Source: Escherichia coli (GTDB lineage Bacteria; Pseudomonadota; Gammaproteobacteria; Enterobacterales; Enterobacteriaceae). From it: 64,000 nucleotides of DNA. The DNA lies in the NCBI RefSeq assembly GCF_022846255.1, contig NZ_AP025682.1; one strand, 5' to 3'. Every line of letters begins with the position of its first letter. Within the stretch, counting starts at the first letter, position 1. Of this stretch, positions 593-5,833 are shown one piece after another. A program made the translations under genes and the position numbers. Below the pieces are notes generated by a model. It saw only the letters and a program-made list of their open reading frames with translations. It was not told the origin of the DNA and made no database searches.

Positions 593-602
593 GAAATGCG
601 AA

Positions 603-632
603 ACAGCCCCGGTAAAATCCGGGGCTGTTTTA
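603..632 (+). terminator. rho-independent terminator after asnB
   Basis: acagccccgg-taaaat-ccggggctgt followed by ttt, 11 nt after the asnB stop. Confidence 0.7.
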
Positions 633-903
633 GTTATTGAGCTGCTTGTTGATTCTGATATGCAGTAAGGAAATGTTCCGGGTTTGCCACATCGCTGTTT
701 GACAACTCATTACTGTAGGCCAGTATTTCATAGATTAATTTCCCACCACTATTGTTGAATTCCGAATTTCATCCTGTATGACAAAAGAATGGCTGTAGGG
801 TGGGGAGAAAACACAAAGTAAACAATAATTGACGAATATAGCGCCATGCTGTTCGCAACCTAACCAAACAGTCACTTTCGAGCAATTTTCCTTGAAAAAG
901 AGG

Positions 904-932
904 TTGACGCTGCAAGGCTCTATACGCATAAT
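904..932 (+). promoter_or_regulatory. candidate sigma70 promoter of the tRNA operon (TTGACG-17 nt-CATAAT) with GC-rich discriminator
   Basis: TTGACG at 904-909, 17-nt spacer, CATAAT at 927-932, then gcgcccc discriminator typical of stringently controlled stable-RNA promoters; about 40 nt upstream of metT. Confidence 0.5.
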
Positions 933-972
933 GCGCCCCGCAACGCCGATAAGGTATCGCGAAAAAAAAGAT

Positions 973-1049
973 GGCTACGTAGCTCAGTTGGTTAGAGCAC
1001 ATCACTCATAATGATGGGGTCACAGGTTCGAATCCCGTCGTAGCCACCA
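973..1049 (+). tRNA. metT: tRNA-Met (elongator, anticodon CAU)
   Basis: 77-nt sequence GGCTACGTAGCTCAGTTGGTTAGAGCACATCACTCATAATGATGGGGTCACAGGTTCGAATCCCGTCGTAGCCACCA read directly; cloverleaf and CCA end. Confidence 0.95.
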
Positions 1050-1059
1050 TCTTTTTTTT

Positions 1060-1144
1060 GCGGGAGTGGCGAAATTGGTAGACGCACCAGATTTAGGTTC
1101 TGGCGCCGCAAGGTGTGCGAGTTCAAGTCTCGCCTCCCGCACCA
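1060..1144 (+). tRNA. leuW: tRNA-Leu (anticodon UAG), long variable arm
   Basis: 85-nt sequence GCGGGAGTGGCGAAATTGGTAGACGCACCAGATTTAGGTTCTGG...CGCCTCCCGCACCA read directly. Confidence 0.95.
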
Positions 1145-1167
1145 TTCACCAGAAAGCGTTGTACGGA

Positions 1168-1242
1168 TGGGGTATCGCCAAGCGGTAAGGCACCGGTTTT
1201 TGATACCGGCATTCCCTGGTTCGAATCCAGGTACCCCAGCCA
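1168..1242 (+). tRNA. glnU: tRNA-Gln (anticodon UUG)
   Basis: 75-nt TGGGGTATCGCCAAGCGGTAAGGCACCGGTTTTTGATACCGGCATTCCCTGGTTCGAATCCAGGTACCCCAGCCA. Confidence 0.95.
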
Positions 1243-1276
1243 TATTCTTCGAGTAAGCGGTTCACCGCCCGGTTAT

Positions 1277-1351
1277 TGGGGTATCGCCAAGCGGTAAGGC
1301 ACCGGTTTTTGATACCGGCATTCCCTGGTTCGAATCCAGGTACCCCAGCCA
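1277..1351 (+). tRNA. glnW: tRNA-Gln (anticodon UUG), tandem duplicate
   Basis: Identical 75-nt copy of the glnU sequence. Confidence 0.95.
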
Positions 1352-1366
1352 TCGAAGAAACAATCT

Positions 1367-1443
1367 GGCTACGTAGCTCAGTTGGTTAGAGCACATCACT
1401 CATAATGATGGGGTCACAGGTTCGAATCCCGTCGTAGCCACCA
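1367..1443 (+). tRNA. metU: tRNA-Met (elongator, anticodon CAU), second copy
   Basis: Identical 77-nt copy of the metT sequence. Confidence 0.95.
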
Positions 1444-1491
1444 AATTCTGAATGTGTCGAATACGTTCGGCAAATTCAAAAACCAATTTGT

Positions 1492-1566
1492 TGGGGTATC
1501 GCCAAGCGGTAAGGCACCGGATTCTGATTCCGGCATTCCGAGGTTCGAATCCTCGTACCCCAGCCA
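1492..1566 (+). tRNA. glnV: tRNA-Gln (anticodon CUG)
   Basis: 75-nt TGGGGTATCGCCAAGCGGTAAGGCACCGGATTCTGATTCCGGCATTCCGAGGTTCGAATCCTCGTACCCCAGCCA. Confidence 0.95.
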
Positions 1567-1603
1567 ATTTATTCAAGACGCTTACCTTGTAAGTGCACCC
1601 AGT

Positions 1604-1678
1604 TGGGGTATCGCCAAGCGGTAAGGCACCGGATTCTGATTCCGGCATTCCGAGGTTCGAATCCTCGTACCCCAGCCA
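1604..1678 (+). tRNA. glnX: tRNA-Gln (anticodon CUG), tandem duplicate
   Basis: Identical 75-nt copy of the glnV sequence. Confidence 0.95.
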
Positions 1679-1687
1679 CATTTGAAA

Positions 1688-1715
1688 AGCTCGCTTCGGC
1701 GGGCTTTTTGCTTTT
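1688..1715 (+). terminator. rho-independent terminator of the tRNA operon
   Basis: agctcgc-ttcg-gcgggct stem (one U.G pair) with UUCG loop, followed by ttttgctttt. Confidence 0.65.
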
Positions 1716-1894
1716 CTGCGTATATTCAATGTCGAATGCGATGTTGATACAGCTAATTTGAATTTGGCCCACGGTTCAGGGCAAACCAGCCTGGAAGCAC
1801 ACTCAGGCGCGGTTTTCCCGCTCACCCTAACCCTCTCCCCAAGGGGCGAGGGGACCGTCCGCACGCTTTTGTAGCTTTGGTATCAACCGTTACG

Positions 1895-3215: not shown

Positions 3216-4640
3216 ATGACCAAAAAACTCCATATTAAAACCTGGGGCTGTCAGATGAACGAGTACGATTCATCGAAGATGGCCGATCTGCTGGATGCCA
3301 CCCACGGCTATCAACTGACCGACGTGGCGGAAGAAGCGGATGTGCTGCTGCTGAACACCTGCTCAATCCGCGAGAAGGCTCAGGAAAAAGTCTTCCATCA
3401 GTTGGGTCGCTGGAAACTGTTAAAAGAGAAGAATCCAGACCTGATTATCGGCGTCGGCGGCTGCGTGGCATCGCAAGAAGGCGAGCACATTCGCCAGCGC
3501 GCCCACTATGTCGATATTATTTTTGGGCCGCAAACGCTGCACCGTCTGCCGGAGATGATCAACTCCGTGCGCGGCGACCGCAGCCCGGTTGTAGATATCA
3601 GCTTCCCGGAAATCGAGAAGTTTGACCGTCTGCCGGAACCGCGTGCCGAAGGGCCGACCGCGTTTGTCTCCATCATGGAAGGCTGCAATAAATATTGCAC
3701 CTACTGCGTGGTGCCTTACACCCGTGGTGAAGAGGTAAGCCGTCCGTCCGACGATATTCTGTTTGAAATTGCCCAGCTTGCGGCTCAGGGCGTGCGTGAA
3801 GTCAACCTGCTCGGTCAGAACGTGAACGCCTGGCGTGGTGAAAACTACGACGGCACCACCGGATCGTTTGCCGATCTGCTGCGTCTGGTTGCGGCGATCG
3901 ACGGGATCGATCGTATTCGCTTTACCACCAGCCATCCGATCGAATTCACCGACGATATCATCGAAGTGTATCGCGACACGCCGGAGCTGGTGAGTTTCCT
4001 GCATCTGCCGGTACAGAGCGGTTCCGATCGCATTCTGAACCTGATGGGACGTACCCATACAGCGCTGGAGTACAAAGCGATCATCCGTAAACTGCGTGCG
4101 GCGCGTCCGGATATTCAGATCAGTTCTGACTTCATCGTTGGCTTCCCTGGCGAAACCACCGAAGACTTCGAGAAAACGATGAAGCTGATTGCCGACGTCA
4201 ATTTCGACATGAGCTACAGCTTTATCTTCTCTGCACGTCCGGGTACGCCAGCCGCCGATATGGTTGATGATGTTCCGGAAGAAGAGAAGAAGCAGCGTCT
4301 GTATATTCTGCAAGAACGTATTAATCAGCAAGCGATGGCATGGAGCCGCCGGATGCTCGGCACCACCCAGCGTATTCTGGTAGAAGGTACATCGCGTAAG
4401 AGCATCATGGAGCTTTCCGGTCGCACTGAAAATAACCGCGTGGTCAACTTTGAAGGCACGCCAGATATGATCGGTAAATTCGTCGATGTAGAAATTACCG
4501 ACGTCTACCCGAACTCTCTGCGCGGTAAAGTGGTGCGTACTGAAGATGAAATGGGTCTGCGCGTGGCAGAAACGCCGGAATCGGTGATTGCCCGTACCCG
4601 CAAAGAAAACGACCTTGGCGTGGGTTATTATCAGCCGTAA
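3216..4640 (+). CDS. miaB: tRNA-i6A37 methylthiotransferase (radical SAM)
   Basis: 474-aa translation [26 protein letters not shown]... with CNKYCTYC radical-SAM cysteine motif. Confidence 0.95.
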
Positions 4641-4792: not shown

Positions 4793-5833
4793 TTGAACAT
4801 AGACACTCGCGAAATCACCCTGGAGCCAGCAGACAATGCGCGTCTGTTGAGCCTGTGCGGCCCGTTTGATGACAACATCAAGCAGCTCGAACGCCGTCTC
4901 GGCATCGAGATCAATCGCCGCGATAACCACTTTAAACTGACCGGCCGTCCGATTTGCGTCACCGCTGCGGCAGACATTCTGCGTAGCCTGTATGTCGATA
5001 CTGCCCCGATGCGTGGTCAGATTCAGGATATCGAACCGGAACAGATCCACCTTGCGATTAAAGAAGCGCGGGTACTGGAGCAAAGCGCGGAGAGCGTGCC
5101 GGAGTACGGCAAAGCGGTCAATATCAAAACCAAACGCGGCGTAATCAAGCCGCGTACGCCAAACCAGGCGCAGTACATCGCCAATATTCTCGACCATGAC
5201 ATCACCTTCGGCGTTGGCCCGGCGGGTACGGGTAAAACCTACCTGGCAGTGGCTGCGGCAGTTGATGCCCTGGAGCGTCAGGAAATTCGCCGTATTCTGC
5301 TGACTCGTCCGGCGGTAGAAGCCGGTGAGAAACTGGGCTTCCTGCCTGGCGATTTAAGCCAGAAAGTAGACCCGTATTTGCGCCCACTGTACGACGCGCT
5401 GTTTGAAATGCTGGGCTTTGAGAAAGTCGAGAAACTGATTGAGCGCAACGTTATTGAAGTCGCGCCGCTGGCCTATATGCGTGGTCGTACGCTGAACGAC
5501 GCGTTTATCATTCTTGATGAGAGCCAGAACACCACCATCGAACAGATGAAGATGTTCCTGACCCGTATCGGTTTTAACTCAAAAGCGGTTATCACCGGCG
5601 ACGTCACACAGATCGACCTGCCGCGTAATACCAAGTCAGGCTTGCGTCACGCCATCGAAGTGCTGGCCGATGTTGAAGAGATCAGCTTTAACTTCTTCCA
5701 CAGCGAAGACGTGGTTCGTCACCCGGTGGTGGCGCGTATCGTTAACGCTTATGAAGCCTGGGAAGAAGCCGAACAAAAACGTAAAGCGGCGCTGGCAGCA
5801 GAACGCAAGCGCGAAGAACAGGAACAAAAATGA
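4793..5833 (+). CDS. ybeZ: PhoH-like ATPase
   Basis: ORF 4754..5833; Walker A GPAGTGKT; probable native start is the TTG at 4793 ([19 protein letters not shown]...) preceded by aagaggaa SD; ATG at 4754 is the alternative. Confidence 0.9.

What the first reader, a model, noticed from the sequence alone, without database searches (positions are those of the whole stretch)
973..1678. Seven-tRNA operon with internal tandem duplications
The operon is Met-Leu-Gln(UUG)-Gln(UUG)-Met-Gln(CUG)-Gln(CUG). The duplicated pairs are sequence-identical, and the two tRNA-Met copies are identical, so the operon is itself a set of nested direct repeats prone to recombinational copy-number change. A stringent-type promoter precedes it and a UUCG-loop terminator follows. 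Known arrangement.
Basis: seen in the sequence. Interest (0 to 1): 0.15.

Follow-up and report, generated by a model that had tools for sequence, protein, structure and literature searches.

The report
Known E. coli seven-tRNA metT operon

Summary
Confirmed and already known. [quoted passage not shown] 1981), lying between asnB and ubiF in an E. coli lineage. The two Met genes, the UUG-Gln pair and the CUG-Gln pair are each 100% identical, and identity stops at the gene edges. The promoter (TTGACG-17-CATAAT plus a GCGCCCC discriminator) is conserved in 110 of 114 Enterobacterales species. A hairpin plus T-run follows the array in 89 of 101 species, with 22 different inner stems. "Stringent" is inferred from sequence only. 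The recombination inference holds, at low frequency. Among 5,426 complete E. coli genomes, 85 lack the UUG-UUG spacer and 159 lack the CUG-CUG spacer, and there are 40 and 33 extra spacer copies. Some losses are assembly errors. Across species, 5- to 8-gene versions exist. Paralog identity is not universal, so in E. coli it is a homogenised state. One addition: a covarying helix pairs the 5' leader with the spacer after metT, and only metT has it. Interest is low.

The parts
894..903 (+). A-tract (GAAAAAGAGG) directly upstream of the -35 hexamer; resembles a proximal UP-element subsite
   Evidence: Sequence. An A-run at this position is kept across Enterobacterales genera. The function is inferred.
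904..932 (+). Sigma-70 promoter: -35 TTGACG (904-909), 17-nt spacer, -10 CATAAT (927-932)
   Evidence: Scan (10 of 12 matches). TTGAC[AGT]-N16-18-[CT]A[TC]AAT-GCGCC is present in 110 of 114 species, while the spacer sequence varies freely.
933..939 (+). GC-rich discriminator GCGCCCC, with the transcription start at about 939-940
   Evidence: Nearly invariant in the loci shown. The in-vitro precursor used in PMC3985628 starts at CGCAACGCCGATAAGGTA, which is window 939. Stringent control is inferred from established knowledge of GC-rich discriminators.
940..972 (+). 5' leader of about 33 nt. Its first ~16 nt (GCAACGCCGATAAGG) are as conserved as the tRNAs, and its 3' A-run (962-971) forms one strand of the leader-trailer helix
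973..1049 (+). metT, elongator tRNA-Met(CAU), CCA encoded
1050..1059 (+). metT-leuW spacer TCTTTTTTTT; the 3' strand of the leader-trailer helix, pairing with 962-971
   Evidence: Covariation count (82.6% paired, 6 of 7 pairs with compensatory change, 0 of 500 shuffles as high). RNAfold minimum-energy and centroid structures contain the helix. Specific to metT.
1060..1144 (+). leuW, tRNA-Leu(UAG)
1168..1242 (+). glnU, tRNA-Gln(UUG), copy 1
1243..1276 (+). glnU-glnW spacer (34 nt) with a GCGG-TTCA-CCGC hairpin; used as the marker for the UUG duplication
1277..1351 (+). glnW, tRNA-Gln(UUG), copy 2, identical to glnU
1367..1443 (+). metU, tRNA-Met(CAU), identical to metT
1444..1491 (+). metU-glnV spacer (48 nt) with a stable hairpin (-11.4 kcal/mol); lies in the part of the transcript where RNase E cuts
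   Evidence: RNase E sites map only downstream of metU according to PMC3985628 and PMC2241853.
1492..1566 (+). glnV, tRNA-Gln(CUG), copy 1
1567..1603 (+). glnV-glnX spacer (37 nt) with a hairpin; used as the marker for the CUG duplication
1604..1678 (+). glnX, tRNA-Gln(CUG), copy 2, identical to glnV; this is the position that carries supE44 in K-12 laboratory strains
   Evidence: RP437 has CTA at this position. glnX44 is documented in PMC4444293.
1685..1715 (+). Rho-independent terminator: AAAA, then GCTCGC-TTCG-GCGGGC, then TTTTTGCTTTT. The core stem is 1689-1694 with 1699-1704, the loop is 1695-1698. The window allele has a T1691-G1702 wobble where most E. coli have T-A
   Evidence: -15.5 kcal/mol. 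Experimentally a Rho-independent terminator that RNase E removes (PMC2241853).

Best explanation
[quoted passage not shown] One sigma-70 promoter with a GC-rich discriminator drives a single transcript of about 780 nt that ends at a UUCG-loop intrinsic terminator. RNase E first removes the terminator and cuts downstream of metU. RNase P then separates the tRNAs at their mature 5' ends, and 3' exonucleases trim back to the encoded CCA. The unit holds every tRNA-Gln gene, both elongator tRNA-Met genes and the only tRNA-Leu(UAG) gene of K-12, so it is essential as a whole, while the duplicates make each individual gene dispensable. That redundancy is why supE44 (glnX CUG to CUA) is tolerated. The identical paralogs act as direct repeats. 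Unequal homologous exchange between them adds or removes whole Gln units, or Met-Leu-Gln units, and gene conversion keeps the copies identical in the Escherichia lineage. Shown here: gene content, identity, synteny, promoter and terminator conservation, and the existence of variants. Taken from the literature: co-transcription, processing order and essentiality. Inferred: stringent control and the recombination mechanism.
For: The seven tRNAs are called at the stated coordinates and anticodons. Paralogs are 100% identical, and identity ends at the gene edges. The locus lies between asnB and ubiF, as in K-12-derived RP437 and other E. coli. 5,423 of 5,426 complete E. coli genomes carry it. The promoter is conserved in 110 of 114 Enterobacterales species, with a variable -35/-10 spacer. 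A hairpin plus T-run follows the array in 89 of 101 species, with 22 distinct inner stems. Literature: a full-length seven-tRNA transcript, terminator removal by RNase E, and separation by RNase P (PMC2241853); RNase E sites only downstream of metU, and a precursor starting at CGCAACGCC (PMC3985628); the unit is essential and holds all CAU, UAG, UUG and CUG anticodon genes (PMC11480407; PMC6265465); supE44 = glnX44 (PMC4444293), seen directly as CTA in RP437. Copy-number change: strain 214-4 has one CUG-Gln gene; at least 20 genomes have one UUG-Gln gene (rows H133-140 and H159-170); 85 and 159 genomes lack the UU and CC spacers, with 40 and 33 extra spacer places and up to 3 and 4 per genome. 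Among 91 arrays not cut by a locus end, 46 have the 7-gene order and 23 have six genes; 8-gene arrays, arrays with 3-4 UUG genes and Met-Leu-Gln-Gln-Met-Leu-Gln arrays also occur. Homogenisation: paralogs differ in 30 of 100 (Met), 25 of 98 (UUG) and 24 of 60 (CUG) species, including Citrobacter, Enterobacter and Raoultella.
Against: No expression or regulation was measured here, so 'stringent' rests on sequence class only. Several variant E. coli layouts cannot be viable: there is no tRNA-Gln(UUG) in NWU_1 or WB61, and no operon at all in CEA224S. Five of the eight single-piece single-UUG hits come from one strain series (GF), and both STK strains examined show anomalies, so part of the apparent variation is assembly error or shared descent rather than independent recombination events. 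A missing spacer could also mean spacer divergence beyond megablast seeding. I could not list any E. coli genome with an expanded array, so I did not verify that the extra spacer places are tandem. Short-read assemblies in the cross-species set may collapse identical repeats.
Confidence: 0.95

Rival explanations
1. The paralogs are identical simply because each tRNA sequence is under strong purifying selection. No recombination or gene conversion is needed, and the array is structurally stable.
For: tRNA genes are invariant across the E. coli loci compared, while the spacers vary. About 94% or more of E. coli genomes keep the canonical layout.
Against: Other Enterobacterales tolerate different sequences in the two copies, with about ten differences between the two CUG-Gln genes in Citrobacter, Enterobacter and Raoultella. 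Selection therefore does not force identity. Whole-unit gains and losses exist within E. coli and between species. STK77-E carries a Gln::Met hybrid joined at the shared GGTTCGAATCC T-arm, which is a recombination-type product if the assembly is correct.
Confidence: 0.15
2. The copy-number variants seen in E. coli assemblies are all assembly or consensus artefacts of a repeat-rich locus. Real E. coli always has seven genes.
For: Non-viable layouts exist in deposited 'complete' genomes: CEA224S, NWU_1 and WB61. Variants cluster by sequencing study, as in the GF and STK series.
Against: The repeat unit is only 109-112 bp, which long reads span easily. Single-copy variants occur in unrelated laboratory and clinical strains such as Origami2(DE3), AS19, an ST131 isolate and 214-4. 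Fixed copy-number differences between genera, each seen in several independent assemblies, show that the process is real on evolutionary time scales.
Confidence: 0.2

Closest known systems
[quoted passage not shown]
   Same: Same gene order, anticodons, tRNA sequences, leader, promoter hexamers and discriminator, and the same asnB/ubiF flanks.
   Different: Only allelic differences: the metT-leuW spacer has 10 T instead of 9; there is one SNP in the UU spacer; the metU-glnV spacer is 48 nt instead of 47; the terminator stem is GCGGGC instead of GCGAGC, and CATTTGAAAAG replaces CATTAAAAAAG. A different 146-bp segment replaces the REP-like sequence between the terminator and ubiF.
Other tandem identical tRNA gene arrays in E. 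coli, such as glyVXY, which has three or four identical copies across strains according to PMC4539685
   Same: Identical tandem copies inside one transcription unit, with copy number differing between strains.
   Different: The metT operon mixes three amino-acid specificities and has two nested levels of repeat: adjacent Gln pairs, plus Met genes 394 bp apart.
Large-scale tandem duplications that change tRNA gene dosage in Pseudomonas fluorescens SBW25 (PMC7661048, PMC10954465)
   Same: tRNA gene copy number changes by duplication under selection for tRNA supply (abstracts).
   Different: Those events duplicate large chromosomal segments ("large-scale" in the abstracts). Here the unit gained or lost is a single gene plus its spacer of about 110 bp, or a block of about 400 bp, and the exchange occurs between the tRNA genes themselves.

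Membership tests
E. coli metT-leuW-glnUW-metU-glnVX tRNA operon | Seven tRNA genes in the order Met(CAU)-Leu(UAG)-Gln(UUG)x2-Met(CAU)-Gln(CUG)x2 on one strand | tested here: met
   ARAGORN and Rfam.
E. coli metT-leuW-glnUW-metU-glnVX tRNA operon | Chromosomal position between asnB (same strand, upstream) and ubiF (convergent, downstream) | tested here: met
   The window aligns across asnB, the operon and ubiF of annotated E. coli genomes.
E. coli metT-leuW-glnUW-metU-glnVX tRNA operon | tRNA sequences identical to the E. coli genes, with CCA encoded | tested here: met
   Exact-string matches of the window's Met, Leu, Gln(UUG) and Gln(CUG) genes in the E. coli loci fetched. All seven genes end in CCA.
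E. coli metT-leuW-glnUW-metU-glnVX tRNA operon | Single polycistronic transcript processed by RNase E (terminator and distal part) and RNase P | not testable with these tools
   Shown experimentally for K-12 in PMC2241853 and PMC3985628. Here only one conserved promoter and one terminator are seen.
Stringently controlled (ppGpp/DksA-sensitive) stable-RNA promoters | GC-rich discriminator between the -10 element and the transcription start | tested here: met
   GCGCCCC at 933-939, present in 110 of 114 species as part of the promoter motif.
Stringently controlled (ppGpp/DksA-sensitive) stable-RNA promoters | Transcription falls on amino-acid starvation or ppGpp induction; short-lived open complex | not testable with these tools
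   No expression data are available here, and no paper measuring this promoter was retrieved.
Intrinsic (Rho-independent) terminator | GC-rich hairpin immediately followed by a U-tract | tested here: met
   GCTCGC-TTCG-GCGGGC followed by TTTTT.
Intrinsic (Rho-independent) terminator | The structure, rather than the sequence, is conserved in relatives | tested here: met
   89 of 101 species have a hairpin plus T-run within 70 nt, with 22 different inner 6-bp stems.
Concertedly evolving tandem gene family | Paralogs more alike within a genome than orthologs are between genomes; copy number varies by whole units | tested here: inconclusive
   Whole-unit copy-number variation is seen. E. coli paralogs are identical while sister genera carry diverged pairs. 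No paralog/ortholog phylogeny was built.

The most novel reading that the evidence does not exclude
The 5' leader A-run (window 962-971) and the metT-leuW spacer (1050-1059) form a conserved, covarying helix that extends the metT acceptor stem. This helix is specific to the first gene of the operon. It would be an undescribed processing element, for example one that delays RNase P cleavage at metT or shields the transcript's 5' end until downstream cuts are made. Separately, the invariant first 16 nt of the transcript suggest a further conserved leader function.
Probability: 0.35. Interest if true: 0.3.

Novelty: already known. Interest (0 to 1): 0.12.

Why it matters
The operon is textbook material, so the finding itself changes nothing. 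What this check adds is scale. It gives a first-pass count of how often an essential, repeat-built tRNA unit gains or loses genes in 5,426 E. coli genomes and about 120 related species. It shows that the perfect identity of the duplicates is a lineage-specific homogenised state. It warns that 'complete' assemblies contain impossible versions of this locus. The metT leader-trailer helix is a small, testable lead for people who study tRNA precursor processing.

Tried and rejected
1. Synthetic 'deletion-allele' queries, intended to count single-copy variants by coverage, failed as a counting method. The search tool joins overlapping pieces, so normal loci also reach 100% coverage. Only single-piece rows and rows listing a single tRNA-Gln were usable.
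2. Doubled-spacer queries, intended to list expanded arrays, failed for the same reason. They only reproduced the counts. No expanded E. coli array was inspected directly.
3. I tested whether the UUG-pair and CUG-pair spacers are homologous, which would indicate duplication of a Gln-spacer-Gln block. There was no significant similarity: sp34 against sp37 did not reach z>2.
4. I considered the T-run after metT as an internal terminator or attenuator. I rejected this because ACCA separates it from the acceptor stem, and the covariation fits pairing with the leader instead.
5. I checked whether CEA224S lacks tRNA arrays in general. It does not: its lysT-valT array is intact.
6. One literature search failed on syntax.

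Full report
**Observation.** Rfam's tRNA model hits all seven at 57.6-71.1 bits, well above the gathering score of 29. String comparison shows that the two Met genes, the two UUG-Gln genes and the two CUG-Gln genes are each identical. Identity stops within 2 nt of the gene edges. The six spacers (10, 23, 34, 15, 48 and 37 nt) are unrelated to one another, and the UUG and CUG genes differ at 7 of 75 positions.

**Identity.** The segment matches 5,423-5,424 of 5,426 complete E. coli genomes. In annotated genomes the flanks are asnB (upstream, same strand) and ubiF (downstream, convergent). [quoted passage not shown] It was first sequenced by Nakajima, Ozeki and Shimura (Cell 1981; cited as reference 78 of PMC9514646). 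The window is an E. coli lineage not present in the collection. Its best identity is 98.9% over 8 kb, to strains such as IMT16316 and MS6198.

**Promoter.** The scan finds TTGACG (904-909), a 17-nt spacer and CATAAT (927-932). That result alone is no better than chance. I therefore scanned one genome per species for the Met-to-Leu junction, which returned 120 Enterobacterales loci. In 110 of the 114 loci with enough upstream sequence, the motif TTGAC[AGT]-N16-18-[CT]A[TC]AAT-GCGCC is present 34-51 nt upstream of metT. The hexamers and the following GCGCCCCGCAACGCCGAT(A/G)AAGG are almost invariant from Escherichia to Proteus and Budvicia, while the spacer between the hexamers varies freely. This is a clear phylogenetic footprint. 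An A-run directly upstream of the -35 hexamer is also kept. The in-vitro precursor used in PMC3985628 starts at CGCAACGCCGATAAGGTA, which is window 939, consistent with a start about 7 nt after the -10 element. The GC-rich discriminator is the sequence hallmark of stringently controlled stable-RNA promoters. That label is an inference from established knowledge, because no regulation was measured here.

**Terminator.** GCTCGC-TTCG-GCGGGC followed by TTTTTGCTTTT lies at 1689-1715, with a flanking A-run (-15.5 kcal/mol). The window allele has a T-G wobble where the other five E. coli loci that retain this stem have T-A. Of 101 species with enough downstream sequence, 89 have a hairpin plus T-run within 70 nt. 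They show 22 different inner stems, for example GCCCGC/GCGGGC, GCCCAC/GTGGGC and CTCACC/GGTGAG, so it is the structure that is conserved. Mohanty and Kushner showed experimentally that this is a Rho-independent terminator. Its removal, mainly by RNase E, is needed for efficient RNase P processing of the full-length seven-tRNA transcript. RNase E also separates the distal genes, and 3' exonucleases finish maturation (PMC2241853). RNase E sites map only downstream of metU (PMC3985628).

**Function and redundancy.** In K-12 this unit carries all genes for the anticodons CAU (elongator Met), UAG (Leu), UUG and CUG (Gln). It could not be deleted without a complementing plasmid (PMC11480407; PMC6265465). 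The duplicates make single genes dispensable. The K-12 derivative RP437 has the full-length locus, but its last Gln gene reads CTA. This is the classical supE44 amber suppressor, now assigned to glnX (PMC4444293).

**Copy-number change within E. coli.** Queries made only of the spacer that lies between duplicated genes, with flanks too short to seed a match, give direct counts.

| Spacer | Genomes lacking it | Extra places | Most places in one genome |
|---|---|---|---|
| UUG-UUG | 85 of 5,426 | 40 | 3 |
| CUG-CUG | 159 of 5,426 | 33 | 4 |

The loci I inspected include the following:
- Strain 214-4 has a clean 6-gene operon with one CUG gene.
- At least 20 genomes have one UUG gene (rows H133-140 and H159-170).
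- STK77-E has a Gln::Met hybrid gene joined at the T-arm sequence GGTTCGAATCC, which the Gln and Met genes share.

There are caveats. Some layouts cannot support life:
- NWU_1 has Met-T-Met-Gln(CUG)x2.
- WB61 has Met-Leu-Gln.
- CEA224S has lost window 972-1678 exactly, with no copy elsewhere in the assembly, while its lysT-valT array is intact.

Variants also cluster by sequencing study. The loss counts are therefore upper bounds. I could not list the expanded arrays, because two query designs failed.

**Copy number and identity across species.** Of the 91 arrays not cut by a locus end:
- 46 have the 7-gene order.
- 23 have six genes, with a single CUG-Gln (Serratia, Rahnella, Morganella, Sodalis and others).
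- Smaller numbers have three CUG genes, three or four UUG genes, a single UUG gene, or Met-Leu-Gln-Gln-Met-Leu-Gln (Budvicia).

All of these differ by whole repeat units, as unequal exchange between the identical genes would produce. Paralog identity is not universal. All copies are identical in 70 of 100 species for Met, 73 of 98 for Gln(UUG) and 36 of 60 for Gln(CUG). Citrobacter, Enterobacter and Raoultella carry two clearly different CUG-Gln genes. The perfect identity in Escherichia is thus a homogenised or recently re-duplicated state, not merely the result of purifying selection. A test for homology between the two Gln-pair spacers was negative.

The A-run that ends the 5' leader (962-971, AAAAAAAAGA) is complementary to the spacer that follows metT (1050-1059, TCTTTTTTTT). 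Other genera show compensatory changes:

| Genus | 5' flank | 3' flank |
|---|---|---|
| Hafnia | AAATAGA | TCTATTT |
| Budvicia | ATATTA | TAATAT |
| Edwardsiella | AATAAAGA | TCTTTATT |
| Tatumella | AAAACA | TGTTTT |

I counted pairs on an ungapped alignment of 46 distinct sequences. For the seven pairs from -8..-2 to +1..+7:
- 82.6% of cells are standard pairs, against 73.7 +/- 1.1 in shuffles (0 of 500 reach the observed value).
- 23 cells have changes on both sides, against 6.1 in shuffles.
- 6 of the 7 pairs show compensatory change.
- The chosen register beats every slid register (covariation score 0.267 against 0.183 or less).

RNAfold's minimum-energy and centroid structures both contain the helix. 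In 51 canonical arrays, metT flanks are 97.9% paired in this register, against 16-53% for the other six tRNAs. The helix would extend the acceptor stem, with ACCA and the -1 nucleotide bulged out. A role in ordering RNase P cleavage or protecting the 5' end is speculation. The papers I could read do not mention it. I could not read the 1981 paper.

**Verdict.** Interest is low.

Noticed in passing
window 962-971 with 1050-1059: The leader A-run and the metT-leuW spacer form a 10-bp helix flanking metT. Compensatory changes occur across Enterobacterales, and the helix is specific to the first gene of the operon. I did not find it described in the papers I could read.
   Followed up: yes
window 939-955: The first ~16 nt of the transcript (GCAACGCCGATAAGG) are as conserved across Enterobacterales as the tRNAs themselves, well beyond what a discriminator needs. 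They can form a small 5' hairpin (GCC-GAUAA-GGU).
   Followed up: partly
window 1748-1893: The segment between the terminator and ubiF is found at this locus in only 37-43 of 5,426 E. coli genomes (for example IAI39 and CUVET19-1396). K-12-type strains have a REP-like palindromic sequence there instead. Its GC-rich core (about 1817-1861, CTCACCCTAACCCTCTCCCCAAGGGGCGAGGGGAC) also matches elsewhere in a few genomes, so it looks like a small repeat element.
   Followed up: partly
window 1683-1704: The window's terminator allele differs from the common E. coli allele. Its stem is GCGGGC instead of GCGAGC, which creates a G-U wobble, and the upstream A-run is TTGAAAAG instead of TAAAAAAG.
   Followed up: partly
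L002 (E. coli CEA224S, NZ_CP166080.1) 4270-4275: This 'complete' assembly lacks the entire seven-tRNA array. The loss is precise, from 1 nt before metT to the last base of glnX, and there is no copy elsewhere, although the strain's lysT-valT array is intact. This is biologically implausible for an essential unit, and the junction has no repeat that would explain it.
   Followed up: partly
L006 (NWU_1), L127 (WB61), L004 (STK77-E): Other odd assemblies of this locus. NWU_1 has Met-T-Met with Leu and both UUG-Gln genes missing. WB61 has Met-Leu-Gln only. STK77-E has a Gln::Met hybrid gene joined at the shared T-arm GGTTCGAATCC. The first two layouts would be non-viable, so they are probably assembly errors.
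   Followed up: partly
L001 (RP437) 2402-2476: The last Gln gene has anticodon CTA, which ARAGORN labels 'Pyl' and PGAP leaves unannotated. This is the supE44/glnX44 amber suppressor of K-12 laboratory strains. C600 likewise shows only one annotated Gln at the CUG pair.
   Followed up: yes
L007, L021, L029, L083, L086 and other loci: In Citrobacter, Enterobacter, Raoultella and Pseudocitrobacter the two CUG-Gln genes are of two distinct sequence types. The order of the two types differs between genera, which hints at conversion or reshuffling.
   Followed up: no
L107 (CACSKA010000002.1): A contig titled 'Chryseobacterium sp. 18061' carries an Enterobacteriaceae-type Met-Leu-Gln array with exact matches to the E. 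coli tRNA ends. The assembly is probably mislabelled or contaminated.
   Followed up: no
window 600-633: A hairpin plus T-run (GAAACAGCCCCGG-TAAAATC-CGGGGCTGTTTT) sits at the end of the upstream asnB gene. It is presumably the asnB terminator and would insulate the tRNA promoter from read-through.
   Followed up: no
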